A DNA stretch of 36,663 nt from Cyanophora paradoxa CCMP329 (taxonomy: Eukaryota; Plantae; Glaucophyta). The DNA is taken from the NCBI GenBank assembly GCA_004431415.1, contig QPMI01000422.1, positions 1-36,663 on the forward strand, in the 5' to 3' direction. Each line of letters starts with the position of its first letter. The stretch's first letter is position 1. The notes beneath the pieces are model-generated. The model had not been told where the DNA came from. It did not search any database and saw only the letters and a list, made by a program, of their open reading frames with translations. Positions 5,488 to 34,059 of this stretch are shown piece by piece. A program made the translations under genes and the position numbers.

Positions 5488-5699
5488 TACAGAAGATCAG
5501 AACTCGAAAGATATCATCGAAGCAGGCTCGGCCCAAAATGGATGCGCGTACCAGAGGCGCAGGCCGAAGAGGACGAGGGCCCGGCTGCCGGCTGCAGCGA
5601 GGACTAGGGGTGAGGGGCCGCGGAAGCAACACAGAGCGGCGGGCTCACGGCAGAACTGCCAGCGGCAGCGGGGCGTTGGCGACGGCCAAGCCCCCTGCC

Positions 5700-6242: not shown

Positions 6243-6326
6243 CTGCATGCGGAGTTGTCAATTGTAATTATGCATAAACCAGCCGGAAACCCCCGTAGTG
6301 AATGAAGGGAACAAGGCAGAACTCAC

Positions 6327-6936
6327 ATCTATGGTGGCGCCTGCAGGCGGCAGCTGCGGTTTGCAATAAGAATCGTGAGGCCTAGGGTACGTGAAAAAAC
6401 ACGGCGTGATCACCGACGCGTTCGAGGCGGCGAGGGATCGGAGGAAGGCAATCAGATCTTTGCGCGCATAGTTGGGCAGGCCTGTGAATGGGTTGCTGCT
6501 CTCTCGTATCCACCTCAGGCTTGCAATGCGGCCAAGCTCCGCCGGAAGAGTCAACAGCTTGCCGCCAAGGACGTGCAACTCCTCCAAGTTTGCCAGGCGC
6601 CCGATTTCCGACGGCAGTTCTGTAATCTCGAGATAGTCCAGGTTTAGAATTTTTAGGCTTGCGAGCTGCCCCATCTCCGGTTGCAGTGCTGTCAGCTTGT
6701 TTTGTCCCATCGAGAGTTCCACCAGGTTTGCAAGCTGCCAAATCTCAAGCGGCAGCACCGTCAGCTCGTTGCTGCTGATGTCGAGCTTCTTCAGGTGCAA
6801 GAGCCGCCCGATCTCCCGTGGCAGCGTCGCCAGCTTGTTTCTGCGCACGTAGAAGATCTGCAGATTCACAAGCTGGCCGATCTCCGCTGGTAGAGCCGTC
6901 AACTCGTTGTCATAAATGTAGAGCTGCTCCAGGCTC
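6327..6936 (-). CDS. Host LRR block 1, 3' half (downstream of the viral insertion)
   Basis: SLEQLYIYDNELTALPAEIGQLVNLQ... about 6 LRRs plus cap. The first ~36 aa of ORF 6258..7043 are viral TIR read-through. Confidence 0.88.
6931..6936 (+). repeat. Left target-site duplication AGGCTC
   Basis: Identical hexamer directly flanks the right end at 32655-32660. Confidence 0.95.
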
Positions 6937-7793
6937 GCTCGCATGGGGGTAGCCCCCACCAATTGCGCGACCTTCCCGCAACCATTTTCAATAAGCACAT
7001 TTTCAGCATCACGAATCTCAGTCACAAAATCACAAATTCGCACTGAGCCACATTGTATTTTTCAAACATCTAACCCTTCCTTACTGAAACCAATCACGAA
7101 ACCCTTTCATTCTTCATTTTTCTAATTCCTTACCATTCCCAGTAAGCCCTTTAACTTTCCCCCGATCTCTCAGTAAGGACAGTAAGACCCTCATTTTTAC
7201 GAAATGTTCCCGATCGTTTCCGGACTGTTTTCAGTTACCCAAATTGAAAAATCAAGGTGAGCCCCACCAATTAAACAAGTGATCCCCACTTAAAGACTTC
7301 CAGTTAATATACTGTAACAATGGCAAGCAATCAAGTAAATCTACCTGAGACTAAGCGGTGCAATGTTTGCGATAAGGTAAAACCGGCATCGAGTTATGCA
7401 TTGCAAAAGCGTAGCTCAGGGAATGTTACTTTAAATTGGAGATGCAAAGTCTGCGACCGAGACTATCACAATTACCTTTATCATTTCGTGTTAAAAACGC
7501 GTCCGAAAATCGAAGTGCAATCGAAGATATGCTCGCACTGCAAGATTGAGAAGCTTGCAAGTGAGTTTAATAAAAGACAAAGAACGAAGGATGGTCTCAA
7601 CTATCAATGCCGAGAGTGTTATAGCAAAACTCGTAAGAGTTAAACCGAATTTCATTTTATATTTTTTAAAGCGAGTATGTGCATGAGCAAGCATGCCGAA
7701 AATGCCCACCTGCACAAACTCGCGACTTCAATCGAAATGTTCCATTTAATGCACTGGAACCACTCGCGCCCCGCCACTATGCAAGATACATGC
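6937..7793 (+). repeat. Left terminal inverted repeat (857 bp)
   Basis: Reverse complement of 31799-32654. By eye I found one substitution (6980) and three 1-bp homopolymer indels. Confidence 0.95.
7320..7643 (+). CDS. TIR-encoded tandem zinc-finger protein, 107 aa (copy 1)
   Basis: Two KxCxxCxxxKxxxx(Y/F)...CKxC/CREC modules of the kind found in viral DNA-binding and endonuclease-associated proteins. Identical protein at 31949-32272. Confidence 0.8.
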   Translation: MASNQVNLPETKRCNVCDKVKPASSYALQKRSSGNVTLNWRCKVCDRDYHNYLYHFVLKTRPKIEVQSKICSHCKIEKLASEFNKRQRTKDGLNYQCRECYSKTRKS

Positions 7794-8041
7794 AAACTAC
7801 ATGCGAGTTATATGAAAAATAAAAATTCAGTCATGTATATATTTCGTATATATGTCCGAACCTCCGTGTATGTGATCCCGCGCAACTTTGAATTTTTGTG
7901 TTTTTTATGTTTTTTTCGCATATGACGACATATACATATATATACCGGCGTCACCGACATATTCGGGGTCATCACATCGCGGAGATTCCGAAACATATAG
8001 CATGCGATAGCGTAGTATTTTAACGTGGTCTGATCGGAATG

Positions 8042-8467
8042 TGATAAATCAGCTGATAGGGCTGATCGTAGTGTGATAAATCAGCTGATCGCCATCTGAT
8101 AAATCAGCTGATAGGGCTGATCGTAGTGTGATAAATCAGCTGATAGGGCTGATCGTAGTGTGATAAATCAGCTGATCGCCATCTGATAAATCAGCTGATA
8201 GGGCTGATCGTAGTGTGATAAATCAGCTGATCGCCATCTGATAAATCAGCTGATAGGGCTGATCGTAGTGTGATAAATCAGCTGATAGGGCTGATCGTAG
8301 TGTGATAAATCAGCTGATCGCCATCTGATAAATCAGCTGATAGGGCTGATCGTAGTGTGATAAATCAGCTGATCGCCATCTGATAAATCAGCTGATAGGG
8401 CTGATCGTAGTGTGATAAATCAGCTGATAGGGCTGATCGTAGTGTGATAAATCAGCTGATCGCCATC
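8042..8467 (+). repeat. Higher-order tandem array (ABAAB)x3
   Basis: A=TGATAAATCAGCTGATAGGGCTGATCGTAGTG (32 bp, 9 copies); B=TGATAAATCAGCTGATCGCCATC (23 bp, 6 copies). The 142-bp super-unit occurs three times exactly. Confidence 0.95.
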
Positions 8468-8493
8468 TGATAAATCGTGATGTGATCGCAGGA

Positions 8494-8670
8494 GATAGTA
8501 TAGCGGGATAGTATAACCCAGGGGTGATAGTATAGCCGGATAGTATAACCACGGGCGATAGTATAGCGGGATAGTATAACCCCAGGGGGCGATAGTATAG
8601 CCGGATAGTATAACCCCGGGCGATAGTATAGCGGGATAGTATAACCCCATAGCCGGATAGTATATAGTAT
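8494..8670 (+). repeat. Second tandem array, about five 31-34-bp units GATAGTATAGC(G/C)GGATAGTATAACC...GGG(C/T)
   Basis: Units start at 8494, 8526, 8557, 8591 and 8622, followed by a partial unit. GCGG and GCCG alternate. Confidence 0.9.
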
Positions 8671-9084
8671 CACCAGGCATAATAGCCGCCGGTATTTATT
8701 TACCGGAACACCGGCGATCGCGACTTCGCGGAGACCCCTTCCGTTTTTCCCGCATAACTTTGGACAGGAAGCGATCTCGGCGCGCTCTCAATTGCTACGT
8801 GCTCGTAACTTGCTTCCGGGCACGATGGTGCTACTTTGACTAGCTTACGCAACCGTGACGCGAAACCCCAGTTCGCCAACGGCACAAGTGCCCGAAAACC
8901 GAGGTGTCCGCTACATTCTGAGCGCCGGCGCGCGTTCCCCTGAGGCTCCACTAGTCATACTTTGCATCCGTGTGCGTATAGAGTAGTTCTACGCTAATAC
9001 AAAGCGGCGCGGTCAGATTCGCAAAGGGCGCGATTTGGCGGCTACGAAACCACATAGCTCACAAAAATATCGACTTAAATAATA

Positions 9085-9477
9085 ATGGATTCCAAATACC
9101 GCGGCTACCACGTTATGCTCGACTATATAACCGACCCGTTCACCGAGTCCCCGGAGGCATGCGCCGAGTGGATCACAGCGAACCTATCGCAATATATCAC
9201 AGATCGCAATATGCGCATCGTGCACCAGCACACATGCATTTTCGATGGCTCTATTTCCCCTCCCGGTTTCGCGATTGGCTTTCTATTAGATGAGTCGCAT
9301 GCCACAGCTCACTCTTATAGCGACCAGGGGCTATTAGCGATCGATATCTTTACATGCGGCTCAAATGCCGAAGCGAAGACAATGGGTATAGCACAGGACA
9401 TTAACGAACTCATACAAGAAAGGCTGAAAGTTCGAAAGTGGGACTTACAGGTCGAGCAAAGGTTCCCAATTTCATAA
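9085..9477 (+). CDS. speD: Prokaryotic-type (short, class 1b) pyruvoyl-dependent S-adenosylmethionine decarboxylase proenzyme, 130 aa
   Basis: GYHVMLD N-terminus, PPGFAIGFLLD-E|SH-ATAHSY self-cleavage site and AIDIFTCG motif match the SpeD/SpeH family. Confidence 0.88.
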   Translation: MDSKYRGYHVMLDYITDPFTESPEACAEWITANLSQYITDRNMRIVHQHTCIFDGSISPPGFAIGFLLDESHATAHSYSDQGLLAIDIFTCGSNAEAKTMGIAQDINELIQERLKVRKWDLQVEQRFPIS

Positions 9478-9502
9478 AAAATGAAAAAAGCGACATATAC
9501 AT

Positions 9503-9817
9503 TTAATGTTCCTTGATCGGAAACTTGCCCATTAGCGGGTGATCGAGACCCATGACATACCAGGATTTCATAACGGGATCCCAGCGGGCTCTCTCAGCCT
9601 TCGCTTGATCCTTAAATTCATAAGGAATATCGAGGTAAACCTTCACGTTTCTTTGATACACTTGCTCATAGCTTAGAGTTTTGAACTGAGAGCATAGGGG
9701 GTGATCTTTCTTCGTGACATACCAGCATGAATTCTCACGATCCCACTTTCCACCGAGGGATTTCGCAACGTCTTTTTTATCAAACGGAATATCAATAAAA
9801 TGCTTTTCACCCTCCAT
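9503..9817 (-). CDS. Tandem DUF5710-like domain protein, 104 aa
   Basis: Two repeats, IDIPFDKKDVAKSLGGKWDRENSCWYV and LDIPYEFKDQAKAERARWDPVMKSWYV. Confidence 0.8.
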   Translation of the reverse strand: MEGEKHFIDIPFDKKDVAKSLGGKWDRENSCWYVTKKDHPLCSQFKTLSYEQVYQRNVKVYLDIPYEFKDQAKAERARWDPVMKSWYVMGLDHPLMGKFPIKEH

Positions 9818-9830
9818 CTCTTTTATATTT

Positions 9831-9850
9831 ACCGGAGAAAATAATTTCGG
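9831..9850 (-). promoter_or_regulatory. Conserved upstream motif (minus strand CCGAAATTATTTTCTCCGGT) before the DUF5710 gene
   Basis: 20-bp exact copy at 15597-15616; 13 bp separate it from the ATG at 9817. Confidence 0.65.
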
Positions 9851-9856
9851 GGTTTG

Positions 9857-11239
9857 TTATGAACGAGATGACCGAAGAATGCGCGTAGTAGGGGCTGTGT
9901 AGCTTGCGCTCTGATTCTTGAATGATTTATACCACCGCTGACTGTTTACCTCTGAGAGCTTCTCGGTTCCCGCAATCGTTAATTTAGCGAGCTCCCTCAG
10001 CGCCCTCTTTGTCTTTTCTGCGCGATCTTCCAATAAAGCCCCTTTCGGAACACTTGCGGCGACATCTATGCCTTCTTTTTGAACCTGCCGGATCGAAGCT
10101 GCCTCTACATCAGCCGCTAAAATAGCGTTGCCTGATGGCTCGACCACAGCTTCGACCTCTGTAATGATCTGCAATTCGTGCGGCTTAAAAAGCTTCGGCA
10201 TTACGTTCCCCGCTGCATCTTGCACCTCTATCGCGTTTCCTCTCCTTCCCGCAATTTTGTAGACCTCTCGGCTATACCTTTGGGTCGCTCCTTTATCAAA
10301 CTTTGATCTCGGCAATAATACACGGACGTGGAGACCCGGCTTAAAGTCGCTGAATATATCCTTTACGATTGTGTTCTTCTTTGAAATAATAGCCGCTCGG
10401 ATCCGCTCCATATCAGAAAGCTTAACATCTGCGGGTTTCATTCCTATGGTTCTGTGAATGGTGTTATTATAATTGAAAACGAAGTCGTCCAATTTGTCCA
10501 TGAATCGAACTGTATTATAAGCGACACAGTAATTGTTTATCATCGTTTTTAAGGTCAAATGAAAGCGATTCATTATTCCCAGAGAAGTGTGATCTCCGAC
10601 CTGTTTAAAGCGGTGCTCTATTCCATTATTTTTTACGACCTCCTGAAACTCCTTCGCAATGAATTCCGAACCGTTATCTGTCTCCAATCGAATCATCGGA
10701 GCCGGGAGCTCTGTGAGCATCTCCGCAAAAGCGGCGGCAACACTTGCGCCCTCCTTATTCTTTAACTTCTTGGCATATGCTTTTCGGCTTGTCATCTCGA
10801 TGAGAGTAAGGACTGCAATGTAGCCGGAATTATAGCTGCCATATGAGAGATAAAAGATGAGATCGGCTTGGTAGCACCACGGCGGGGCTGTGATGGGAAT
10901 AAAAGCGGTTTGGGTCGGTGCGGGGGGCTTCTTGTTGATCTGCATAAATTCTTGTTTCGCTGCGACATCTTGCACTTCTTTCAGTGTGAGGGTCTTGTCC
11001 TCTTTTCTCAGCTCTTCGTACAATGCCGATGGGTTCTTAAAACCTGTTTTTGGGTCATACATGCGGCGCACGATCTTAGAGGACGGGTTAGCAATGCTAA
11101 AAGGAACATCTCCTAATAAATTTGATTTTGCTTGGCGTTTTGTGATTTTTTGGGGGACTTGCTCAGTTTCAGGAACCGCGATAGGTAGTATGGTGGTCTC
11201 TGTCTCCTCGCCCGCTACCCTTCTAACGATCCGTGACAT
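9857..11239 (-). CDS. Polinton-type retroviral-like (rve) integrase, 460 aa
   Basis: YQADL (D1), ETDNGSEF (D2), LGIMNRFHLTLK (N in place of E, 35 residues after D2), YNNTIHRTIGMKP, and C-terminal FKPGLHVRV...FDKG...YSREVYKI typical of Polinton integrases. Confidence 0.93.
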   Translation of the reverse strand: MSRIVRRVAGEETETTILPIAVPETEQVPQKITKRQAKSNLLGDVPFSIANPSSKIVRRMYDPKTGFKNPSALYEELRKEDKTLTLKEVQDVAAKQEFMQINKKPPAPTQTAFIPITAPPWCYQADLIFYLSYGSYNSGYIAVLTLIEMTSRKAYAKKLKNKEGASVAAAFAEMLTELPAPMIRLETDNGSEFIAKEFQEVVKNNGIEHRFKQVGDHTSLGIMNRFHLTLKTMINNYCVAYNTVRFMDKLDDFVFNYNNTIHRTIGMKPADVKLSDMERIRAAIISKKNTIVKDIFSDFKPGLHVRVLLPRSKFDKGATQRYSREVYKIAGRRGNAIEVQDAAGNVMPKLFKPHELQIITEVEAVVEPSGNAILAADVEAASIRQVQKEGIDVAASVPKGALLEDRAEKTKRALRELAKLTIAGTEKLSEVNSQRWYKSFKNQSASYTAPTTRILRSSRS

Positions 11240-11257
11240 TCTTCTAATTAAACCTGT

Positions 11258-14200
11258 TTATTTTTTGCTGCAATTGCACCCGTGATGCACGAGCTGGCAA
11301 TTGTCTTTAAGATGTGGGCGCCTGTTGTTTATGCGATCCACGACGAGCTTGTAATTCGGATCTTGTGGCTCAGTCGGAATAGGAAGGGAACAGAGCGCAC
11401 AGGCGCCCTTCTGTTGCTTCTTGCGCTCTAATATCCACTCCGGCGTAATATAATCCGCCTCATCGAAATCGCGCCCGGCACGCTGATCCTGGCATTTGTA
11501 ACCGCGGATCTTCCCTTTCAGATACTCGATGTAGTCACTCTTTCCTTGGAACTTGTGAATCGGTGTATAAATCAGCACAGTAGACAGATCGCGGTTACGA
11601 GTGAGCGCGGTATAGAACCATTCGCGAGTGGTATAGCGGAACGTAGCCTCACAAATGACAATGCCCGAATCAAGTGTGAGACCTTGCGTTGAATGACCTG
11701 TTCCTGCATAAGGGAGAGAAAAATGTTCTAACATCGCGCACGGAACCTCAAACGTGACACCATCGAAAACGTCCGTTAATGTGACCATTTGCTTTGTGAT
11801 TTTGGTGATTCGATAGGTGTAATTCGTGTATGCGTTTATAGACTCGCCCTCAGACCGCGAAATGCGTAGATACTTGCGGCAAACGACTTCCAAACCCTTG
11901 TAGAATTTGATGCCATTGACCTCTACGGTTGGGATATTTACTTTGCGTCTATCGTGCATCAGTTTGTTGTAGGCTAAGGTCATTTCGTTTCTGTAAGCGA
12001 TGCCAAAGTAGCCGTCGGGAATAGCGCTTAGATCATTAATTGTCGGCAACCCGTATTTCGAGATAATCTGTGCGGCTTCCAGTCCGTTCTCGAAGAGATC
12101 CTCTTTAATCGCCCGAATTAATTCACGGTCTGTCTCCTTCTTGTGCCGCTTGTTAATGCGTAGACTCAGGACGTTAGGGAACATGCTCTGCACAGCGCGC
12201 TTATAGTAGCCCTTGCGATCAGAAACCGATAGCTCATCATTAATCGGTTCGTTCTGATAGGTATCGCCATTAGCCAAATATTTGATATCCGGATAGCGAT
12301 CGATAAACGACTTGATCTTAGCGAGATCTTTTACGGAATACGCGAATATCTCGTCGAACATAATGTGACTGAACTCGGAGACGAACGCCCTCTGGTCTTT
12401 TTCGCTCATAGCCTCTTCGTAGGTCTGATCATTTGAGACACGGATCCCGAGAACATTATATAAAGTACGAACGGTAATATTCTCGATTCCGCGGACTTTG
12501 AGAGAGTCCCTCAGCTCCGCGCACTGTTTGTTATAGGGGCAAATAACTAAGCAATTCGACTTTTGAGATGCGAAACAGTTAATACCGAGTGTCGACTTTC
12601 CACTTCCGGGCATGTCAGCAAGGACAAGCATACGATTATGGAGCTTCGCAACCCAATTAAAGCACTCCGGATTAAATTCGTCCCTCAGCGAGAACCGGTT
12701 AATGAGTGTCTCGGGATCCTGAAATTCGAGAGTTACACCCCGTGGTGGGCGGAGTGCATTCTCAGGGCATCTTTTCCCGGGAATATAGCTGAATTTGCCC
12801 ATGTTCTCAAACGCATTTCGGTCGAACTCTTTCTTACTTGTCCATGAACCTTCGATATATAGGCAATCCGTTCTGATCCCGGCAACCTTGTGCCCGCGCG
12901 CTGTCAGGCGCTTGTATTGCGCAAACATATTGGCACGGTTGCGATCGTAAATATGAAAGTGGATAGGAAGGAATCCGTTAACGAGCTCGCGGTGGGAGCT
13001 GATCTTAACGAAATAGATGTGACCTTCGAATTCGCTAAGAGTTTTGACACGTTTCGAATTCTTAGGATTGAAAGTAAACACCTCTACTGTTCCTCCGCAT
13101 TCTTGGGCGAACCTCTCAGCCTCGGCACGGTTGTAGAACATTTTCGTGGATGTTTGCGAGTCTTGGAATTTGCCGAGCATTCCGATCTCTTTCACTAAAA
13201 TGTGCTTCTTATCTGTGGTTTGAATGTCACTTGAAAGTACTTTCTTCATCTCCGAGATCGAAGTATTGGGCACCAAATGCGAAGGCTCCGCGACCGCGAT
13301 AATCTCTATCTTGTCCTTTACGTCCGCCCAATGCATGGAGAGAGTGTAGCCTGTCATGAAATTATAACAGCGACCACTCACGGAAAATGCGCGATCCAGT
13401 ATAATTTCGATTCCATCAATCTTGCGAGACATGGCGGCATCATAATCAATATCCTCGTCGTCTGCGAAAGTTGCTTGCTCTCTCTCAAACGCAACGACAC
13501 GCACGTAGTAGATCGCGTATTCGAGAATATCGCTTCCCGCTTTAAAGGGAACGAAGTCATCAAACACATTGTATTTCGGAAGATATTGCATGCCTTTCAG
13601 TATCGAAGGGTAGCACTTCGCCATATCGACAGCTGTGTAGGTAGCTTTCGGGTTCGGCTTATAGAAATAGCCGCTTAGTGCGGATCGCTTGTAGTGCGTG
13701 AGAATTTCGCGCATATTCGGGCTGTAATGTGAGATATTCGTCGCATTTAGAAGCGACTCGCGGAATCCCTTCCCGATTTCACAGACCTTATTATAATACT
13801 CCTCTGTTTCGAAATCTTGCTCAATAAAGTGGTCTGTTGTGCGTGGATCTTTGATAGAGAACATCGAGCCATTAGCTTTGAATGTGATGCTGTCGATCTG
13901 TTTCGATGGTGTTAGCTTCACTGCGGGTTCATATCGCATTTTCAGGAACGTAAATAGAAGACCTTCCAGACCTTCGCGCCCAGTATACAGAATGCGGATG
14001 AAACTGCGCTCGTCGGGCGATAGTTTAAGTTGCGTGATCTTTAACAAATCCTTGGATGTGTGCGCGAAGATATCGTGAGTAAGACACGTCGGAATTTTAT
14101 AGAGTGCTAACGAAGAGGTCGACTTAGGAACATGATTATCGAGCTCTTCGACCTCCATCTTCGCCATGCGCATTTCGAGCGACTTGATGTTATCGTTGAA

Positions 14201-15574
14201 TATATAGATGTGCTTGTTGTGAATCATAAAGTGAATATTGCGGGGAAAGATGTTTTTGTTAATTGATTCCGCCGCGAATTTGTGTATTAACTTTCCGTCG
14301 ACATCAAAGACGCGGAAGCCTGTCTGAATTCTCTTACAGAATTTCTCGATATGGCGGAGGGTGAGAGCCAGAGAGTCGCCAGGTGTGCGTTCGCGACCGT
14401 GAAAGAATTTATAGAGACCGTCGTAGGACATAGTTAAGTCAGTATATCGCGGTTTTGGCGCGTCCTGACACTTCTTAATGGACGCTCCCCATGTGGAGAT
14501 GATCATATCGTATCCGCAAGCGTTAGATGTAGATGATTTGGGAAGCTCAATAACATCTTCGAACTCAGACGCGTTTGGATTTAATGTGTAGTCTGTGAAT
14601 TTGCTCATAATCGCGGTGCATCGCATGCTGTCCGTAAGCTCCTCATCCAGAAACGCATAGCGATTGCCAGGGATAGCACCGGCTCCGTCATCTTCGACAC
14701 CTTCGTCCCCATCGATCACGACCTCATGAACAGTTATAAAGGCATCATCGATACTGCCGCCAAGATCATCAAATATTAGGCGTAGTCTTTTCTGTTCCTC
14801 GGTTGGTGGTGTCTTAAAGAAGAACACCTCGTATGCTTCGCCGAAAGTTTTAAGTCCTACTGCCAATTCATCGTAGTTTTTGAGTAAATAGAAGATTGAT
14901 TCGCTCTCATGCCAATCATGACGAACTTGACCCGGTCTAATTATAATTTGAGACATTCTATCCATTTTCGCCAGAGCAAAGCTTCGCAACACACTCACCG
15001 AAACTGTCTCTCTTATCTTGCGGTAGGTGACAAAGGTTCTGTCTGGCATATTTACTTCGGGAATTCCGGGAATAACAAATACCTCCGACGACCGAGCACC
15101 GGATCCAGGTCCCCATAGATTGAACGTAATTGTTGCGAGAGTTTCCGGATCGTATGCGGCGATTGGATCGAGAATAGTGCGTTTAATTGCATCCTCTACC
15201 GTTTTTAGTTTACCTCTCTGCTGCTTTGCTTCGAGCTTCGCTTCTTTCGCTCGTTTCTGTTCTTGCTTGCGATCGAAGCGCTGTAAACGCTTAGCCTCTT
15301 GTTCTTTTTGCTTTTGCTTTTCTATGTTAACTTGGGTGCGAGCGGCGCGCTTTTCTTTCCGCTCTGCCCTGCGGAAAACGCGGGGATTAATGATGCCATT
15401 CAGAGTATCCCGAATGTCGATCAGCGTTTGGAGCTTGGGCTTCCGATTCATTGTGTTGTGCATCGCCCAATGCGCCTGTTCTTCGGTTAGCAAATCCTGA
15501 CTCAATCCCTGCATAATGTATCCGATAATTTCATCCCGAACATTGTTAGCGATTCTGTTGGTTGCGCGCGGCAT
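11258..15574 (-). CDS. Fusion of divergent family-B DNA polymerase, SF1 (RecD/Pif1-like) helicase and C-terminal HNH/His-Me finger domain, 1438 aa
   Basis: PolB motif A AVDMAKCYPS, motif B KKHILVKEIGMLGK, motif C GIRTDCL. Helicase Walker A MPGSGKS, Walker B MFDEIF, GDTYQN, TGHSTQGLTL, YTALTR. C-terminus CALC...VDRINNRRPHLKDNCQLVHHGCN. Confidence 0.88.
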   Translation of the reverse strand: MPRATNRIANNVRDEIIGYIMQGLSQDLLTEEQAHWAMHNTMNRKPKLQTLIDIRDTLNGIINPRVFRRAERKEKRAARTQVNIEKQKQKEQEAKRLQRFDRKQEQKRAKEAKLEAKQQRGKLKTVEDAIKRTILDPIAAYDPETLATITFNLWGPGSGARSSEVFVIPGIPEVNMPDRTFVTYRKIRETVSVSVLRSFALAKMDRMSQIIIRPGQVRHDWHESESIFYLLKNYDELAVGLKTFGEAYEVFFFKTPPTEEQKRLRLIFDDLGGSIDDAFITVHEVVIDGDEGVEDDGAGAIPGNRYAFLDEELTDSMRCTAIMSKFTDYTLNPNASEFEDVIELPKSSTSNACGYDMIISTWGASIKKCQDAPKPRYTDLTMSYDGLYKFFHGRERTPGDSLALTLRHIEKFCKRIQTGFRVFDVDGKLIHKFAAESINKNIFPRNIHFMIHNKHIYIFNDNIKSLEMRMAKMEVEELDNHVPKSTSSLALYKIPTCLTHDIFAHTSKDLLKITQLKLSPDERSFIRILYTGREGLEGLLFTFLKMRYEPAVKLTPSKQIDSITFKANGSMFSIKDPRTTDHFIEQDFETEEYYNKVCEIGKGFRESLLNATNISHYSPNMREILTHYKRSALSGYFYKPNPKATYTAVDMAKCYPSILKGMQYLPKYNVFDDFVPFKAGSDILEYAIYYVRVVAFEREQATFADDEDIDYDAAMSRKIDGIEIILDRAFSVSGRCYNFMTGYTLSMHWADVKDKIEIIAVAEPSHLVPNTSISEMKKVLSSDIQTTDKKHILVKEIGMLGKFQDSQTSTKMFYNRAEAERFAQECGGTVEVFTFNPKNSKRVKTLSEFEGHIYFVKISSHRELVNGFLPIHFHIYDRNRANMFAQYKRLTARGHKVAGIRTDCLYIEGSWTSKKEFDRNAFENMGKFSYIPGKRCPENALRPPRGVTLEFQDPETLINRFSLRDEFNPECFNWVAKLHNRMLVLADMPGSGKSTLGINCFASQKSNCLVICPYNKQCAELRDSLKVRGIENITVRTLYNVLGIRVSNDQTYEEAMSEKDQRAFVSEFSHIMFDEIFAYSVKDLAKIKSFIDRYPDIKYLANGDTYQNEPINDELSVSDRKGYYKRAVQSMFPNVLSLRINKRHKKETDRELIRAIKEDLFENGLEAAQIISKYGLPTINDLSAIPDGYFGIAYRNEMTLAYNKLMHDRRKVNIPTVEVNGIKFYKGLEVVCRKYLRISRSEGESINAYTNYTYRITKITKQMVTLTDVFDGVTFEVPCAMLEHFSLPYAGTGHSTQGLTLDSGIVICEATFRYTTREWFYTALTRNRDLSTVLIYTPIHKFQGKSDYIEYLKGKIRGYKCQDQRAGRDFDEADYITPEWILERKKQQKGACALCSLPIPTEPQDPNYKLVVDRINNRRPHLKDNCQLVHHGCNCSKK

Positions 15575-15596
15575 CTCTATTAGTTCTTTTAAAATA

Positions 15597-15616
15597 ACCG
15601 GAGAAAATAATTTCGG
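15597..15616 (-). promoter_or_regulatory. Conserved upstream motif before the PolB-helicase gene
   Basis: Plus-strand ACCGGAGAAAATAATTTCGG, identical to 9831-9850; 22 bp separate it from the ATG at 15574. Confidence 0.65.
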
Positions 15617-15743
15617 CGCAATCTACCAAATTCTCCTTTTCATACCCTTGTCGCCAAATCTTTAAGTGCTTTTTTGACCGATACGGGGAATAAAAATGGA
15701 GGTAAAAAATTAATCATTTTTTGCATCGTGCGGATACTTTCCG

Positions 15744-16157
15744 CTACGAATTTTTCGCGTTCTCGACGACATGCTTTCGGGGTCTCCCAGCGGGCTTTTG
15801 CGGCTGGGGCTTCACCGGCGGATTCAGCTTTCGTTCCGCTCTTTTCCTGCGTTGGTATTCCCTTGCCTTCTCTCGGATTTTCTCCCGATACTCTTCATCG
15901 TCTTGGTATCGCTGCTGTTTACGAATTGCAATCTTTTGTAGCTGTTCCGGGGTGAATATCGTAGCCTCTCCGGCGGCTAATCGCTCCTGTTTCTGTCTCT
16001 GATGCTTGTTTCGCTGCCGCTCGGCGTCTTTTTCGCGTTTCAGTCTTAATCTCTCCGCCTTCTCCTCTTCTGTGATCACCTTCTTTGGTCGCCCGGGTCT
16101 GCGCTTTTCTTGCTGTGCCGCCATTGCCTCTTGGTTTGAAATCTTGGGTTTCGCCAT
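15744..16157 (-). CDS. Basic coiled-coil protein with two AT-hook motifs, 137 aa
   Basis: KRRPGRPKK and PAGRPRK flank K/R/E/Q-rich helices. The shared motif lies at 16166-16178. Confidence 0.75.
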   Translation of the reverse strand: MAKPKISNQEAMAAQQEKRRPGRPKKVITEEEKAERLRLKREKDAERQRNKHQRQKQERLAAGEATIFTPEQLQKIAIRKQQRYQDDEEYREKIREKAREYQRRKRAERKLNPPVKPQPQKPAGRPRKHVVENAKNS

Positions 16158-16165
16158 TTACTATA

Positions 16166-16178
16166 ACCGGAGAAAATA
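16166..16178 (-). promoter_or_regulatory. Conserved upstream motif (TATTTTCTCCGGT) before the AT-hook gene
   Basis: Minus strand reads TATTTTCTCCGGTTATAGTAAATG directly into the start codon. Confidence 0.6.
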
Positions 16179-16281
16179 GTTTTTTGTCACTCTGTATTAT
16201 TTCCCTTGCCCTTATATACCTTTTACCGAAACCTTCAATTTTTGCGCTCGGATCGATACAAGCGCCACCGAAATTCACCGC

Positions 16282-16716
16282 TCAATAACCGTTCCAGACG
16301 GTTCTTTCTTGTTGCTGAGGATATACATAAGGTTGCTGAGGATAAACATAAGGGTTCGTTACATTTTCATCGTCGCCTAATGGCATTTGATCCAATCTAT
16401 ACATCGGATAAGGGGAGTCAGCGCGCAAATGACCTTCTACAAATTCAGGACATGAGCGCCTTCTAATATGCTCTACATGCACGTCCTCTATCTGAGCGGT
16501 TTCGATATTAGAACTCATAGCCGCGGGCACAGGCGAGGGCGATCGAGATCGTGGGTGGTTGTGATTGTCGCTGTGGTTAGAATATACAGAAAGGCGCCTA
16601 CCTCCATTCTCGTCGTCAGAAATATTAACCTCTACGGTTGTGTCACAGCAAGGACTGTGGCAATTAGACACGACATGAAGCTGAAACATTTCAATGCATT
16701 GTGTGATGAAATTCAT
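16282..16716 (-). CDS. Hypothetical viral protein, 144 aa (Cys-rich N-terminus, PYVYPQQ repeat)
   Basis: ATG-initiated ORF filling the gap, with the shared motif upstream at 16748-16759. Confidence 0.6.
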   Translation of the reverse strand: MNFITQCIEMFQLHVVSNCHSPCCDTTVEVNISDDENGGRRLSVYSNHSDNHNHPRSRSPSPVPAAMSSNIETAQIEDVHVEHIRRRSCPEFVEGHLRADSPYPMYRLDQMPLGDDENVTNPYVYPQQPYVYPQQQERTVWNGY

Positions 16717-16765
16717 CGATCCTACAAGGACGCAACGTATTAAATATCGGAGAAAATAAAAGGGA

Positions 16766-16924
16766 ATGAGGGCTTTACTTGCTCGTGTGTTCCCCTACGA
16801 ATTGGTCGAACTTATAATGCTGTTTATGGAGCCGACCTGTCCCTATTGCAAGGGAGTCCACATAAAGACCCGCTCTAAATACGGGCGGGTTCAGCTTTGC
16901 CTTGCGGATATTCACAGCCATTAG
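16766..16924 (+). CDS. 52-aa micro-ORF with an F-box-like N-terminus and CxxC-H-C residues (not in the ORF track)
   Basis: MRALLARVFPYELVELIMLFMEPTCPYCKGVHIKTRSKYGRVQLCLADIHSH*. It fills the intergenic gap exactly, and its TAG overlaps the convergent TAA at 16921-16923. Confidence 0.5.
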   Translation: MRALLARVFPYELVELIMLFMEPTCPYCKGVHIKTRSKYGRVQLCLADIHSH

Positions 16925-17604
16925 CGGATATGGCGTTTACCACCAAGCATTGCGGCATAATTCACGGGTGCGGTCGGCACAATATGTGCATATTGCGGGG
17001 CAACCGATTGCTGTCGAGTTACGGCTTGCGCATCTGTCTTTTCCTCCTTTTTAATCTCCTCTACGTCGACTTTTTGCTTTAATCCGAGTTTGGAGATCTC
17101 TTTCTTCACGAGCCCCTTTAATTTCTTGCGTTCGTTATAATCTTGCATCCATTTCTCGTAGTTAGAGACTTTCATTTCAAGGTCTCGCACTTTCTCTTCG
17201 AAGCTCATGACAACGTCGACAGGAACCGTGTGTTTTTGATAGGATCCGCGCTTTTTGAGCTCAGTTTCGGCGGCTTTCGGGACGTCTTGCGTTTTGTGCT
17301 GGCTTGCGACAACTTGCGCTTTAATTACTTTGTCGGTTGCTTCATCAACAGAGCCGCCTCCAATCTGTGGTTTTACAGTAGCTAAATCGTCCATTTGGCG
17401 TTTACCGCTATCTTGGTTTCCCTTGTCCGCGGTGGCACTCGCAATAATCGCCTCTTGCTTGGCGACCTCCTCTGGCGAAGTGTCTATAAGATATTCGGGC
17501 ATTTCGAGACCGCCACCCGACGTTAACCCAGACTCTTCAAGTCCGCGATTAGGATTACCAGAAGCGACAGTTTGAATGGTTTGAGGCTTCTTTCGGTAGA
17601 CCAT
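16921..17604 (-). CDS. Hypothetical viral protein, 227 aa, with a coiled-coil/lysine-rich C-half (possible core protein)
   Basis: ATG starts 2 bp after the ATPase stop, in a compact co-oriented block with MCP and ATPase. Confidence 0.7.
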   Translation of the reverse strand: MVYRKKPQTIQTVASGNPNRGLEESGLTSGGGLEMPEYLIDTSPEEVAKQEAIIASATADKGNQDSGKRQMDDLATVKPQIGGGSVDEATDKVIKAQVVASQHKTQDVPKAAETELKKRGSYQKHTVPVDVVMSFEEKVRDLEMKVSNYEKWMQDYNERKKLKGLVKKEISKLGLKQKVDVEEIKKEEKTDAQAVTRQQSVAPQYAHIVPTAPVNYAAMLGGKRHIR

Positions 17605-17606
17605 GA

Positions 17607-18473
17607 TTATCTTCTCTTACATTTGATTAACATTTTCTTTTTCTTAGGCGAAATTTGCGAAAGTTTGGGGATACCTTCAAGCTCACGCTCAAATTTGGAT
17701 AAAGTTCGACAGACAGTTGTCGAATCTTTGACAGGCGGCGGTTTTGTCGCTTGCTCCTCTTGTTGTTTGCGCTTCTTTTCTTCAAAAGCCGCCCGCTTGT
17801 GGAATTTAGTAAACGGATGGTCATCGATCATATCGGCTTTTTCGACCCACCATCGCACAGAATACCCGGTATTATCGTGAATGATCGCTTGGTAGCTATG
17901 ACAGAATTCTTGGAACATGCGCTTAAAACTCTCTTTATCCATGTTCCCGAACTCTTCGTGATATGCTTCAAACTCTCGCATGTTTGACCAGCTTAGGAAT
18001 ATGATATACTCCGCATTGCTGCGAATGATCGTTGAAAGCTTTGTTAGTTTCTGCGATATTAAAGCGACGCTACAAAACGTATGACGACCTTGCGCCATCA
18101 ATTTATTTAGCAAATGATCGCGCGAGAGATCAATAGTTCCCGATTCCAAACAATCGTCGAGCACGATGAGAATATTCTTTGGTTTCTTACCCGCAATGAT
18201 AGCCTTTTTGCGGGCTTCTATGATCGACTCTACGTATTCCGGTTTCCAGGTGTCATGTACTTCGTCTGTTATTTGACCCCAGAAACCGTTAAAACTCGTA
18301 GGACAGAAAACCAGAACATACGAGATCTGGTCTTCGAGTTCTTTGATCAGCCACTTTAAGAATACCGATTTACCACAATTGGTTTTCGCCAATAGGAGAA
18401 ATCGTGCGGGAAGTTTCACCCTCTGTTTCGGGTTCCATTCTTCGAGATCCATGGGCGTTGTCCCTTTTTGCAT
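17607..18473 (-). CDS. A32-like (FtsK-HerA) genome-packaging ATPase
   Basis: Walker A LLAKTNCGKS, Walker B ILIVLDD, QGRH arginine finger, LISQK and IRSN. First ATG at 18473. Confidence 0.92.
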   Translation of the reverse strand: MQKGTTPMDLEEWNPKQRVKLPARFLLLAKTNCGKSVFLKWLIKELEDQISYVLVFCPTSFNGFWGQITDEVHDTWKPEYVESIIEARKKAIIAGKKPKNILIVLDDCLESGTIDLSRDHLLNKLMAQGRHTFCSVALISQKLTKLSTIIRSNAEYIIFLSWSNMREFEAYHEEFGNMDKESFKRMFQEFCHSYQAIIHDNTGYSVRWWVEKADMIDDHPFTKFHKRAAFEEKKRKQQEEQATKPPPVKDSTTVCRTLSKFERELEGIPKLSQISPKKKKMLIKCKRR

Positions 18474-18531
18474 TCTTTCACTATAAAAACAATAGAAAAA
18501 TAAGACTGACTGTGGTAATCGCACGAATTCC

Positions 18532-29900: not shown

Positions 29901-31438
29901 CGAATACATTACAGCCAATAACACCATGTTGTGGGATCGGTCAATTACCAACGAATGCGCCACTTTATTTGGAACAATGGTTTTTCCACATTCGCAAATA
30001 TATACGATAAACGTTATTATGTCGGGAAATGCTTACGCAGAGCATATTATGCAATGGATGAAACAGTAATACAAAGATTGCAAAACTTGTTTCAGAACAG
30101 CGTGTCAATAAAGACCAGTATATACAAACAGGGAAATTCTCAAAATCTTTGACAATCACAGGTCCGGGTCATTGGGGATTTCACAGGTTGTCACATTCCC
30201 GAAAGCATTTGCGGAAGCCCAGAAGTGGTTCTCATCTGATACAGGATATAATGGTGTCATATGTATTGTATATGGTGTCACAAGTTCCACAACAACAACA
30301 TTTACTATTCATGCAACAATTTCGGCAGAACATGCATTCAATGAAAGCATGGACTTTTCACTATCAAATGAGTTATATAGCAACAGGGAAGATGGTAGCA
30401 TAATATTCTCACGTAATAATAATAATATTCTCACGTATATAAAGAACAATCAAAAGATGTCGACAGTATTCACGCCTGTCTTCTCCTGAGCGCCTCAGCT
30501 GTCCACAACGTGCAACACACTATATATGATCTAAGTGAGTCATTCCCTTCGACTGAGACAGCGAAAACGATTCTTTCAATGAGACCTCCATTCTCAGAGT
30601 CAAAGAACTCAGAGCTGACAAGGCTGGTGGAATCGTTAAAGCTACTGAACTGATCGTATCGAATCGACCCGCAATCTCTTCGGGGCTGGTCACCAAAGAA
30701 ATCTATATGAAGGTCAACAGGATTCCAAACGGCTTTAATCCGGCTGATAGGAATTCGGCGCTTTTCAGTTATTATGGTGGTGCCTGGATCGGATGGACTG
30801 AGTGTGAATGGGAGTGCAACAATTACTGGAAGCCTTTCAGCTTCGGGTGGATTCACTGGTTTACTCACAGCAAGTGGTGGATTAAACGATTCTATGATAC
30901 TGTGGGGCAACTGATAATTTTACGATAAAGAGAAACGGGGCAAACTGTTGCTTCTACATATTCAACAGGTGTGTCTCCAAATGATTCGTATGGTTTAACA
31001 ATAAATGGGAGTAAATGCTATCTTGCTCTTCCAAACCACCCCCGTTTCTGTGTTGCACTAACAGCTCCAATCGCTACAAACGGAACCATTGGTAACTGGA
31101 ATTATACATTTCTAAATCATGGAAACCATCTAGCAACATCAACAGGCATCTTCACAGCACCTGTTTCAGGTCACTACAAGTTCATCTTCTCAGGAGTAAC
31201 AACAGCAAATAATGTTAATACACAGGTTATCCTGCGACAAAGTAACCTTACAACTCAACTTATTGCACATTCTCCTGGACTTGGATCACCACTGAGTAGA
31301 TCTATTGGGTTTAATTTTAGTGTTAATATGGGAGCGGGAGATACTGTGAGGTTAGATCTTTATGGTGGTGGATTGGATTCAGCAGGAACACCGGCGATGT
31401 ATACTGTGTGGTCTGGTGAATTAATTTCTGCAACATAG
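26957..31438 (+). CDS. Phage-tail-fibre-like protein B ending in a C1q/TNF-like head domain; multiply frameshifted in this sequence
   Basis: ATG at 26957 after an AT-rich spacer. Repeats HTHTKSEITDF, HLWEHITNRPLTFPPDPHTH and FATVATTGNYDDL. Intact C1q domain NHGNHLATSTGIFTAPVSGHYKF...MGAGDTVRL...TVWSGELI (30971-31438). Confidence 0.6.
28696..29125 (+). repeat. Internal tandem duplication (~224-bp unit) in fibre gene B
   Basis: Both units carry GGTGATGTGCATGC...CCTGTTGTCCACCTTGGTGCTGAATATGTATTAGATCCAA. A more diverged copy (PVVHTGREFILGDNTP) lies near 27390-27460. Confidence 0.8.
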
Positions 31439-31447
31439 AATAAAAGA

Positions 31448-31709
31448 ATGTCGAACATCTACCAAGTGTTCTAACTGACACTGGAAACTGGGAATGGAAT
31501 ACTGTGCCTACTCTGTTCAGGATTGGATCGATAATATGGCTCATAATAGGGCGAGAATCGCGATTGATGAGATTGTGGACAAAGAAGTTAAATCGTGTAT
31601 TGCCGCTGGAATTCCGATTCCACTCACAAAGGAAGCGATTGTGGAGCAAGCATTTAATCGGGGGACTGTTCGAAAGGCAAGCGAAATTCCTGTAAGTGCT
31701 CCTATGTAA
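31448..31709 (+). CDS. Small fibre-associated protein (probable start 31448, with an indel before 31494)
   Basis: MEYCAYSVQDWIDNMAHNRARIAIDEIV... follows the C1q stop after 9 bp. From memory it resembles small proteins encoded after C1q tail fibres in tailed phages; unverified. Confidence 0.55.
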
Positions 31710-31798
31710 AGAATTCGAAGAATGAGAGAGGCGCAGCCGAGGCAGCTTGTCTGACGACTGGGTTTATTGTTATTTTTCATAGATCATGCATAAGAAAG

Positions 31799-32654
31799 GC
31801 ATGTATCTTGCATAGTGGGCGGGGCGCGAGTGGTTCCAGTGCATTAAATGGAACATTTCGATTGAAGTCGCGAGTTTGTGCAGGTGGGCATTTTCGGCAT
31901 GCTTGCTCATGCACATACTCGCTTTAAAAATATAAAATGAAATTCGGTTTAACTCTTACGAGTTTTGCTATAACACTCTCGGCATTGATAGTTGAGACCA
32001 TCCTTCGTTCTTTGTCTTTTATTAAACTCACTTGCAAGCTTCTCAATCTTGCAGTGCGAGCATATCTTCGATTGCACTTCGATTTTCGGACGCGTTTTTA
32101 ACACGAAATGATAAAGGTAATTGTGATAGTCTCGGTCGCAGACTTTGCATCTCCAATTTAAAGTAACATTCCCTGAGCTACGCTTTTGCAATGCATAACT
32201 CGATGCCGGTTTTACCTTATCGCAAACATTGCACCGCTTAGTCTCAGGTAGATTTACTTGATTGCTTGCCATTGTTACAGTATATTAACTGGAAGTCTTT
32301 AAGTGGGGATCACTTGTTTAATTGGTGGGCTCACCTTGATTTTTCAATTTGGGTAACTGAAAACAGTCCGGAAACGATCGGGAACATTTCGTAAAAATGA
32401 GGGTCTTACTGTCCTTACTGAGAGATCGGGGGAAAGTTAAAGGGCTTACTGGGAATGGTAAGGAATTAGAAAAATGAAGAATGAAAGGGTTTCGTGATTG
32501 GTTTCAGTAAGGAAGGGTTAGATGTTTGAAAAATACAATGTGGCTCAGTGCGAATTTGTGATTTTGTGACTGAGATTCGTGATGCTGAAAATGTGCTTAT
32601 TGAAAATGGTCGCGGGAAGGTCGCGCAATTGGTGGGGGCTACCCCCATGCGAGC
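31799..32654 (-). repeat. Right terminal inverted repeat (856 bp)
   Basis: Reverse complement of 6937-7793; ends ...GGGGGCTACCCCCATGCGAGC. Confidence 0.95.
31949..32272 (-). CDS. TIR-encoded tandem zinc-finger protein (copy 2)
   Basis: Same 107-aa sequence as 7320-7643. Confidence 0.8.
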   Translation of the reverse strand: MASNQVNLPETKRCNVCDKVKPASSYALQKRSSGNVTLNWRCKVCDRDYHNYLYHFVLKTRPKIEVQSKICSHCKIEKLASEFNKRQRTKDGLNYQCRECYSKTRKS

Positions 32655-32660
32655 AGGCTC
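32655..32660 (+). repeat. Right target-site duplication AGGCTC
   Basis: Matches 6931-6936. Confidence 0.95.
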
Positions 32661-33924
32661 ACGAGCCGCCCGATCTCCGGCGGTAACGTCGTCAACTTGT
32701 TGTCGTTCGCGTAAAAACACTTCAAATTTACAAGCTGCCCGATCTCCGGCGGTAGCAATGTAAGCTGGCCATGGTTGTCACTGAGATTCAGCTCCCTCAG
32801 ATTCCCGAGCCGCCCGATCTCTGCAGGGAGCGTTCTCAACTCGTTTCGCTGCAACAAGAGCTTTTCCAGGTTCCCAAGCTGGCCGATCTCTGGCGGTAGA
32901 GCTGCAAGCTTGTTGTTGTCCGCACACAGCGTCCTCAGGTTCGCCAGCCGCCCGATCTCCGGAGGCAGCGCTGCGAGCCTGTTCTTGCTGATATTTAGGT
33001 TCTTCAGGCCCACCAGCTGCCCAATCTCTGGAGGCAATAGTACAAATGAACAGCCGGTCACAGAAAACTCCTCCAGGTTCACAAGTCGACCGATTTCCAG
33101 GGGAAGCGCTGTCAACGGATTGCCATCTGCATGCAGCTTCTTGAGGTGTAAGAACAGTCCAATCTCCTCTGGAGAGCCGGCAACCCACTGCAGGCCACGT
33201 TCAGCTCCTCCAGATTCGCCAGTCCTGCGAGCGCCGCCCAGGTTCCGGTGTTGCTCGTAATCATGGATGAAAAGTACTTGAGGTTCAGCACACGGAGCAT
33301 CTTGAGCTGCACAAACTCAGGCGGCAGCTGGGATCCGTAAAATTCCAGGTCGAGCAGCTGCAAATTCACAAGCTGTCTGATCTCCGCTGGCAGTGATGTC
33401 AGCCCGTTGTGTCCCAACGAGAGCTCCACCAGGTTCACGAGCTTCCCGATCTCCGGAGGCAGCGCCGTGAGCTCGTTCCTGCTGACGTCGAGCTTCTTCA
33501 GGTGCGTGAGCCGCCCGATCTCCCGTGCAGCGCCGCCAGCTTGTTGCTGCGCACGTACAACTCCTCCAGGTTTACGAGCTGCCCGATCTCCGGCGGGTAG
33601 CGATGTGAGCTCGTTGTCGCTGGCGAGAAGCCGCCTGAGGCCCGCGAGCCGCCCGATCTCCGGCGGCAACGCCGTCAGCCGATCAATGAATATATCGCCC
33701 TCCACATTCAGCTCCTCCAGGTTCGCCAGCTTCGCGAGCTCGGCCCAAGGGACGCTCGTGGCCGAGCAGCTCTTGAGGTCCAGCACGCGGATGTTCTCAG
33801 GGCCCGCCCGCTCGATCGCCGCCGCTGCAGCTGCGGCCGACTGCGCGTTTGCCGTCGTGAGGACCAGCTTCCCCTCGCCGGCAATCCATGTCCAGCCATC
33901 GATATCGACGTCCCCCGCATGCAT
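32655..33924 (-). CDS. Host LRR block 1, 5' half, interrupted by the virus (start uncertain; several 1-bp indels)
   Basis: Repeated LPPEIGxLxNLxxLxxxxNxL. The N-cap IERAGPENIRVLDL parallels IEQVGPKNIRVLDL in block 2. Ends ...LPPEIGRLVSL at the TSD. Confidence 0.88.
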
Positions 33925-34059
33925 TGATGTCCCGCCGGTCCCGGCCCTGCCTGCGACGCGCCCGCGCACGCGGCGCGATCGTGATCAGTTCGGTCCCAAG
34001 GCCGGCGCCGCGGCCGTAAATAAAAGCGCGGACTTCCGAGTGCAAAGTTCCAGTGGGCT

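What the first reader, a model, noticed from the sequence alone, without database searches (positions are those of the whole stretch)
6931..32660. Complete, apparently young endogenous Polinton-like virus with exact borders and an unusual gene set
Seen: 25.7-kb element, near-identical ~857-bp TIRs, perfect 6-bp TSD, and open core ORFs (integrase, 4.3-kb PolB-helicase, ATPase, MCP, two pentons). Known: a 6-bp TSD with an rve integrase is typical of Polintons/Mavericks and mavirus-like elements, and PLVs generally lack the adenain maturation protease, which I cannot find here. Inference: a recently integrated, possibly reactivatable virus whose gene combination (DDN integrase, PolB-SF1-HNH, AdoMetDC, patatin-discoidin, phage-type fibre) may define an undescribed lineage.
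Basis: partly seen in the sequence, partly recalled or inferred. Interest (0 to 1): 0.88.

Follow-up and report, generated by a model that had tools for sequence, protein, structure and literature searches.

The report
Integrated algal virus with odd integrase
A 25.7-kb virus genome with matching inverted ends sits inside a gene of what is likely a glaucophyte alga; it is likely one of dozens of copies of an already catalogued kind of Polinton-like virus, but its integrase lacks a normally conserved catalytic residue, so another element likely helped insert it.

Summary
The element is real: 6937-32654 (25,718 bp), 857-bp TIRs differing by one substitution, a 6-bp TSD, inserted into a host LRR gene. 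Short-read contigs from two runs match both junctions, and contig depth suggests roughly 30-50 copies. The 437-aa ORF folds as a double jelly-roll capsid. The 'unusual' gene set is mostly known. PolB-SF1-HNH plus rve, without protease, is the Tlr1-like PLV design. Near-identical capsid sequences from the glaucophyte Cyanophora paradoxa are in Bellas 2023 (Table S2). Bulzu 2025 (Table S6) counts rve, SF1 helicase, HNH, lipase and AdoMetDC across 156 glaucophyte PLVs. Core genes show purifying selection between copies (33 of 44 differences synonymous). Frameshifts in the 9-kb fibre arm look like assembly errors. Two things stay open. The capsid lineage is unnamed and very isolated (6 relatives among 1.84 billion proteins). 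The integrase has Asn where 13 of 13 homologs have the catalytic Glu, so integration was probably supplied in trans, or DDN works. Verdict: a well-preserved new member of a known kind; reactivation untested.

The parts
6931..6936 (.). Left target-site duplication (AGGCTC)
6937..7793 (.). Left TIR, 857 bp
   Evidence: X2 and X12 contigs run from host 5754 to 6965 with no differences
7320..7643 (+). 107-aa Cys-rich zinc-finger ORF inside the TIR (identical copy at 31949-32272, minus strand)
   Evidence: PHROG endonuclease VII/HNH-like N-terminal hits E 1e-11
7943..8664 (.). Subterminal tandem arrays (23/32-bp and 31-34-bp units), left end only
9085..9477 (+). SpeD-type AdoMet decarboxylase, 130 aa, with the ESH self-cleavage motif
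   Evidence: Pfam E 1.3e-11; PDB SpeD alignment
9503..9817 (-). Tandem DUF5710 protein, 104 aa
   Evidence: Pfam E 1.2e-24
9857..11239 (-). rve integrase, 460 aa; D126 and D188 present, Asn224 at the third catalytic position
11258..15574 (-). Tlr1-like replicase, 1438 aa: vOTU-like Cys/His, PolB motifs A/B/C, SF1B helicase, C-terminal HNH/EndoVII
   Evidence: helicase E 1.7e-13 and EndoVII E 1.8e-9; vOTU and PolB motifs seen by eye and shared with P0002; fold failed
15744..16157 (-). Basic AT-hook protein, 137 aa
   Evidence: Pfam E 0.003
16282..17604 (-). Two ORFs of unknown function (144 aa, 227 aa)
   Evidence: no family
17607..18473 (-). A32-type packaging ATPase, 288 aa
   Evidence: Pfam Pox_A32 E 1.6e-10
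18532..19845 (-). Double jelly-roll major capsid protein, 437 aa
   Evidence: near-identical published MCPs
19893..20819 (-). Minor capsid protein (penton) 1, 308 aa
   Evidence: PBCV-1 P1 E 4e-4; DUF5901 E 1e-3
20836..21681 (+). Minor capsid protein (penton) 2, 281 aa, paralog of penton 1
   Evidence: pairwise E 1e-7
21678..23170 (-). Patatin phospholipase in two overlapping ORFs; C-terminal beta domain unassigned here
   Evidence: no hit for the C-terminal part
23214..31709 (+). Fragmented arm with fibre/tail-spike-like pieces, 35-36-bp repeats and a C1q domain (30929-31438)
   Evidence: indel-only mismatch to short-read contigs
31799..32654 (.). Right TIR
   Evidence: X2 and X12 contigs run from 32625 to 35406
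32655..32660 (.). Right target-site duplication (AGGCTC)
6258..6936 (-). 3' part of the interrupted host LRR gene
   Evidence: Pfam LRR; frame open across the empty site
32661..33924 (-). 5' part of the interrupted host LRR gene

Best explanation
This is a 25.7-kb Polinton-like virus genome with inverted ends and a 6-bp target duplication, inserted into a host LRR gene; it is likely one of dozens of copies in a glaucophyte alga, is predicted to replicate with a Tlr1-type polymerase-helicase and to form virions, and was likely integrated with help from another element's integrase. Shown: borders, TSD, junction contigs, capsid fold, gene order, a synonymous bias between copies, Asn at the third catalytic position. 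Inferred from known relatives: the replicase (terminal protein?-vOTU-palm-SF1-HNH) copies a linear genome from the TIRs; the A32 ATPase fills a double jelly-roll capsid with pentons and fibres; patatin and lectin-like tips aid entry; an rve-type strand transfer with a 6-bp stagger made the TSD. Who supplied that activity: another PLV's DDE integrase (about 55%), its own DDN enzyme (about 30%), or a lesion limited to this copy (about 15%). A giant-virus helper is plausible (about 50%), given a motif shared upstream of four genes.
For: Borders and empty-site frame. Both junctions in X2 and X12 contigs; element contigs about 30-50 times deeper than host flank contigs; one X21 contig leaves the TIR end into 1.97 kb of other DNA. 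DJR fold. Tlr1 encodes MCP, mCP, ATPase and RVE, lacks protease and has about 30 copies; PLV helicases carry a PolB palm, vOTU and C-terminal HNH. Near-identical C. paradoxa MCPs, 307 of 308 residues by eye. Same gene families in glaucophyte PLVs. Purifying selection: 33 of 44 core differences synonymous against 25% expected, p 5e-12; 14 of 15 in the three capsid genes, 4 of 4 in the integrase. 13 of 13 homologs have Glu; DDD-to-DDN is among the changes that abolish SETMAR transposition.
Against: The replicase fold failed (pLDDT 30) and no Pfam PolB hit was obtained, so PolB and vOTU rest on motifs and one homolog. The MCP could not be placed in any named PLV clade. No particles, free DNA or induction were examined. 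Depth is not a true copy number, and GC bias could inflate it. Synonymous-only integrase differences (n=4) hint that the DDN protein is still needed, which fits a working DDN enzyme as well. The residue in other copies was not seen.
Confidence: 0.8

Rival explanations
1. The family is autonomous and its DDN integrase is itself active, a variant catalytic triad in an rve integrase.
For: Clean 6-bp TSD and near-identical TIRs; an Asn codon two base changes from Glu is unlikely to arise after so recent an insertion; no difference at that codon among the 40 printed rows of 316; 4 of 4 integrase differences synonymous.
Against: Glu in 13 of 13 homologs and in HTLV-2 integrase; DDN SETMAR is transposition-dead; the host carries many other PLVs, 85 of 156 with rve, that could act in trans.
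Confidence: 0.3
2. It now spreads only as a nuclear self-synthesising transposon; virions are no longer made and the fibre arm is truly decaying.
For: Fibre arm fragmented; lower CpG o/e there (0.67 against 1.3); many joints between copies in that arm; gene fragmentation described for OmPLV.
Against: Capsid genes under purifying selection, 14 of 15 synonymous. Arm contigs show 0 substitutions but 6-8 gaps per 340-550 nt; 12 of 12 printed indels (of 135) lengthen a homopolymer run; single-copy host DNA also shows 4 gaps and 0 substitutions in 2.7 kb.
Confidence: 0.12
3. It is a classical Polinton/Maverick or a mavirus-like virophage.
For: rve, TIRs, 6-bp TSD, PolB motifs.
Against: PolB fused to SF1 helicase; no protease found; MCP closer to PBCV-1/iridovirus (Z 28) than to Sputnik or mavirus (Z 14.2, 13.6); this host's MCP clusters (21, 29) carry no Mavpol or virophage label.
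Confidence: 0.05
4. The element or its borders are an assembly artefact.
For: The assembly has many indel errors, and this copy differs by about 1-2% from the majority contigs.
Against: Exact TSD, an open LRR frame across the empty site, and junction contigs in two short-read runs.
Confidence: 0.03

Closest known systems
Tlr1 of Tetrahymena thermophila and PLVs with Tlr1-like pPolB-S1H replicases (Aquintoviricetes; PMC5499653, PMC11161782)
   Same: PolB palm N-terminal to an SF1B helicase, vOTU-like domain, C-terminal homing nuclease (HNH as in PLVs), rve integrase (as in Tlr1), MCP, mCP, A32 ATPase, no protease, TIRs, about 30 copies
   Different: HNH rather than Tlr1's GIY-YIG; a very divergent MCP outside Bellas' Tlr cluster; two pentons; AdoMetDC, patatin, fibre arm; DDN integrase
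Cyanophora paradoxa / glaucophyte endogenous PLVs (PMC10120064 Tables S2, S4; PMC12220804 Table S6)
   Same: Near-identical MCP; 366 MCP hits in two unnamed 'new' clusters; 156 EVEs with rve (85), SF1 helicase (34), HNH (40), lipase (89), AdoMet_dc (66), protease (0); discoidin-patatin and tail-fibre repeats noted
   Different: Catalogued only; in the parts I read there is no genome-level description, name, selection analysis or mention of a DDN integrase
OmPLV of Oxyrrhis marina (PMC12721341)
   Same: About 25 kb, TIRs up to 858 bp, about 1,500-aa helicase-PolB fusion, no protease, divergent MCP
   Different: Reverse domain order with a full exonuclease, tyrosine recombinase, no TSD, no mCP
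Mavirus/EMALEs of Cafeteria (PMC8547959)
   Same: Low-GC elements in a high-GC protist, rve, TSDs, insertion into exons, shared upstream motifs
   Different: Virophage MCP, protease, separate SF3 helicase
Virome PLVs L001-L003, L019
   Same: Closest integrases (29-34% identity), each directly downstream of a large replicase gene
   Different: Ordinary pPolB (Pfam hit in 3 of 4) and 550-600-aa MCP-like ORFs with no tblastn match to this MCP: module mosaicism

Membership tests
PLV with Tlr1-like replicase (Aquintoviricetes) | Double jelly-roll MCP | tested here: met
   (Z 28.2, rmsd 3.3, 336 aligned)
PLV with Tlr1-like replicase (Aquintoviricetes) | Minor capsid protein and A32 ATPase | tested here: met
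PLV with Tlr1-like replicase (Aquintoviricetes) | C-terminal SF1B helicase plus HNH/GIY-YIG nuclease in a 1,000-1,400-aa protein | tested here: met
PLV with Tlr1-like replicase (Aquintoviricetes) | N-terminal vOTU and pPolB palm without exonuclease | tested here: inconclusive
   Motifs present and shared with P0002; no HMM hit; fold failed
PLV with Tlr1-like replicase (Aquintoviricetes) | No maturation protease | tested here: inconclusive
   None in the ORFs scanned, but 9 kb is fragmented
PLV with Tlr1-like replicase (Aquintoviricetes) | MCP within the TsV/PgVV/Dino/Tlr clade | not testable with these tools
   No reference MCPs could be fetched; only 6 unnamed or host relatives; published label is 'new' cluster
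Polinton/Maverick (Polintoviricetes) | rve integrase, TIRs, 5-6-bp TSD | tested here: met
   third catalytic residue is Asn
Polinton/Maverick (Polintoviricetes) | Stand-alone pPolB of the DNA_pol_B_2 type | tested here: not met
   No PF03175 hit; fused to helicase, whereas L001/L003/L019 replicases do hit it
Polinton/Maverick (Polintoviricetes) | Adenain/Ulp1 protease | tested here: inconclusive
   not found; fragmented arm
Virophages (mavirus-like) | Virophage-type MCP | tested here: not met
   Z 14.2 and 13.6 to Sputnik and mavirus against 28.2 to PBCV-1; 437 aa
Virophage lifestyle | Dependence on a giant virus | not testable with these tools
   Only a shared upstream motif

The most novel reading that the evidence does not exclude
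A glaucophyte-specific, unnamed capsid lineage of small DNA viruses is still spreading in its host with an rve integrase whose third catalytic residue is Asn: either the first working DDN integrase or a whole virus family mobilised by a helper virus's integrase.
Probability: 0.3. Interest if true: 0.65.

Novelty: new member of a known kind. Interest (0 to 1): 0.42.

Why it matters
Glaucophytes are an early-branching lineage of primary algae, and my searches found no paper devoted to their DNA viruses. A precisely bordered, selectively conserved PLV in a culturable alga is a good reference genome for an unnamed capsid lineage, and points to an undiscovered giant virus if the family depends on a helper. 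The DDN integrase makes a clean, testable question of how such families integrate. The architecture itself is not new.

Tried and rejected
No whole genome was held, so there was no BLASTN copy count. MCP and ATPase found no related loci in IMG/VR or metagenomes; MCP had no PDB sequence hit. The single-sequence fold of the replicase failed and was not searched. The ESM Atlas gave no answer. No RNA holder was listed; RNA-guess runs X16 and X21 gave a few scattered low-depth pieces, which I do not use as expression evidence. None of 10 element proteins is in the protein collection by exact match, so other copies' integrases could not be read. The 34 of 40 Glu count in viral loci is circular, because the search pattern required Glu; not used. 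Metagenome integrase hits were distant and not used. Discoidin and fibre-repeat pieces had no hits. No tRNA. Earlier scan findings: none. The literature search for AdoMetDC with Polinton returned 0 papers, yet the family is in a supplement, so that blank was misleading. No MCP tree was built, as no reference set was available.
Full report
Observation. The element runs from 6937 to 32654 (25,718 bp). The hexamer AGGCTC flanks it on both sides (6931-6936, 32655-32660). The TIRs (6937-7793, 31799-32654) differ by one substitution and three one-base indels in homopolymers. GC is 44.6% inside against 70% and 60% outside. The element interrupts a minus-strand host LRR gene, and the frame is open across the empty site for the roughly 260 codons tested. 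No genome was held, so I used public runs. Fifteen of 24 listed runs, all labelled organism A, hold at least half of the words of 5500-15000. In X2 and X12 one contig runs from host 5754 to 6965 with no differences, and another from 32625 to 35406. They reach 29-30 letters into the TIRs, just under the tool's 31-letter bar; I infer this is the expected break where a unique flank meets a many-copy TIR. These contigs are unbranched across the TSD, so no common empty allele appears in those two runs (contigs drop rare variants). X1 and X10 contigs start further out and say nothing on the junction. These runs may be the window's own strain, so they check the assembly, not independent biology.

Copy number and age. 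Single element contigs are about 30-50 times deeper than host flank contigs (X1 2694 against 85; X2 3440-3885 against 90-108; X12 594-658 against 12-21). The tool warns that depth is no copy number, and GC bias may inflate it. One X21 contig leaves the TIR end into 1.97 kb of other DNA, which points to a second insertion site. This copy differs from the majority contigs by about 1-2% (for example 10 letters in 676). I classed 60 of the 80 printed difference rows (688 rows existed; 20 printed rows outside the long ORFs were dropped): 45 synonymous, 15 not, none a stop. In the six core genes 33 of 44 are synonymous against 25% expected (p 5e-12), 14 of 15 in the capsid genes and 4 of 4 in the integrase (neighbouring changes in one codon were classed singly). 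So the family diversified under purifying selection that includes the capsid. One TIR substitution in 857 bp fits a recent insertion, present at least in runs of 2019 and 2024; no rate is available to date it.

The fragmented arm. ATG-ORFs of 100 aa or more cover 94% of 9.0-22.8 kb but 17% of 22.8-31.75 kb. Short-read contigs there show no substitutions but 6-8 gaps per 340-550 nt; all 12 printed indel rows (of 135) are bases missing from the window in homopolymer runs; single-copy host DNA shows 4 gaps and no substitutions in 2.7 kb. I read most breaks as assembly errors, but contigs may come from other copies, so real decay is not excluded. Assignments there are thin: C1q (E 2e-7), weak tail and tail-spike hits.

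Core genes. The 437-aa ORF has 1 relative in the word search (61% identity in alignment) and 6 among 1.84 billion representatives. Folded with a 6-sequence alignment (pLDDT 66, pTM 0.72) it is a double jelly roll: Foldseek E 5e-19, TM 0.64 to iridovirus MCP; Z 28.2 to a PBCV-1 capsid chain, 14.2 to Sputnik, 13.6 to mavirus. There is an A32 ATPase and a pair of paralogous pentons. The 1438-aa protein has an SF1B helicase and a C-terminal HNH/EndoVII. Upstream it carries PolB-like motifs (DMAKCYPS, KxxxxKxIG, RTDC) and a Cys353/His455 pair, all matched in P0002; these labels rest on motifs, as the fold failed. No adenain was found. AdoMetDC keeps the ESH motif.

The integrase. D126 and D188 are intact, but position 224 is Asn in IMNRFH, where 13 of 13 homologs read (V/I)ERFN and HTLV-2 integrase reads VER. 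The codon is two base changes from Glu, hard to gain after so recent an insertion, and no difference at it is among the 40 printed rows of 316, a weak hint that Asn is family-wide. That the third carboxylate is needed for catalysis is established knowledge (recalled); DDD-to-DDN is among the changes that abolish SETMAR transposition (PMC6715855, passages). Yet the TSD is what an rve enzyme makes (PMC12220804, passages). I favour integration in trans (about 55%) over an active DDN (30%) or a lesion of this copy (15%). Searches listed no paper on DDN integrases in PLVs (titles and abstract starts seen).

How it likely works. Inferred by analogy: the replicase copies the linear genome from its ends with the helicase replacing strand displacement; the ATPase fills an icosahedral capsid; fibres and patatin serve attachment and entry; incoming genomes integrate at unspecific sites, here an exon, as EMALEs do (PMC8547959, passages). 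A motif upstream of four genes resembles the type-specific motifs linked to giant-virus activation, so helper dependence is plausible but untested. AdoMetDC may raise polyamines for DNA packaging (recalled analogy to chloroviruses).

Comparison with what is known. Tlr1 has about 30 copies, MCP, mCP, ATPase and RVE, no protease, and a PolB-SF1 fusion; PLV versions end in HNH (PMC5499653, parts 1-3 of 5). These proteins are TP-vOTU-palm-S1H and predicted active (PMC11161782, passages). Bellas 2023 (PMC10120064; passages and supplement rows) lists two Cyanophora paradoxa MCPs that match this one almost letter for letter by eye (307 of 308 residues; about 238 of the first 240), with HHpred 92-97% to NCLDV-type capsids, and 366 MCP hits in clusters 21 and 29, both labelled only 'new'; I could not tell which cluster is ours. 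The host is therefore most likely that glaucophyte (inferred; P0003, 37% identical, is also from it). Bulzu 2025 (PMC12220804; passages and Table S6) counts, among 156 glaucophyte EVEs, A32 139, rve 85, SF1 34, HNH 40, lipase 89, AdoMet_dc 66, protease 0, and only 2 hits to their Polinton MCP profile; AdoMet_dc also occurs in three cryptophyte sets (10, 17, 45). These are counts per group, not proof that one element holds all genes. OmPLV has the reverse fusion and a tyrosine recombinase (PMC12721341, parts 1-3 of 7). Replicase-capsid mosaicism is general (10.64898/2026.10.13.758929, parts 1-3 of 5), and my virome loci show it too. Starrett 2021 mentions adintovirus-like proteins in this alga (PMC8502044, passages). 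Figshare/Zenodo data, the cut part of the Bellas supplement and bioRxiv supplements were not seen and may describe this element further.

Verdict. It works like a Tlr1-type PLV (well supported). Formal membership of Aquintoviricetes is likely but untested, since no MCP tree was possible. It is a new member of a known kind, already swept up in two surveys; the isolated capsid lineage and the DDN integrase are the parts worth following. Interest 0.42.

Noticed in passing
window 9831-9841, 15597-15607, 16166-16176, 16746-16756 (minus strand): The motif TTTTCTCCG(G/A)T lies 8-30 nt upstream of four genes (DUF5710, replicase, AT-hook, 144-aa ORF); 4 matches against 0.74 expected, though the pattern was picked after seeing it. 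Shorter TATTTT(T)CT forms precede the ATPase and MCP. Candidate viral promoter.
   Followed up: partly
window 7943-8664: GATC-rich tandem arrays beside the left TIR only (about 30 GATC per kb); contig depth is lower there than elsewhere in the element, and one X12 contig skips 7820-9063, so some copies lack them.
   Followed up: partly
window 27000-31750: CpG o/e 0.67 and TpG 1.35, against CpG 1.3 in the core, with many joints between copies: the fibre arm may have a different history or be hypervariable.
   Followed up: no
window 5700-6248 and 6258-6936 plus 32661-33924: Two adjacent, apparently intronless host LRR genes; the element interrupts one of them in a repeat unit.
   Followed up: partly
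window 34050-35350: Host DNA made of many short self-complementary words (ApT o/e 1.48 in the right flank); X1, X2 and X10 contigs skip 34679-35612 and X12 likewise. Unexplained.
   Followed up: no
window 22500-22517: A cluster of 8 differences in 18 nt in the patatin gene between this copy and the majority contigs, suggesting recombination between subtypes.
   Followed up: no
L001:6151-11140, L002, L003:289-5622, L019: Virome contigs place a related integrase directly behind a large pPolB gene, with different capsids: the replicase-integrase tandem persists while both replicase and capsid change.
   Followed up: partly
P0001 (3.8-kb Logan contig): A 61%-identical MCP of unknown origin; P0004-P0007 (23-28%) come from ENA/Logan contigs, so the capsid lineage exists outside this genome.
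   Followed up: no
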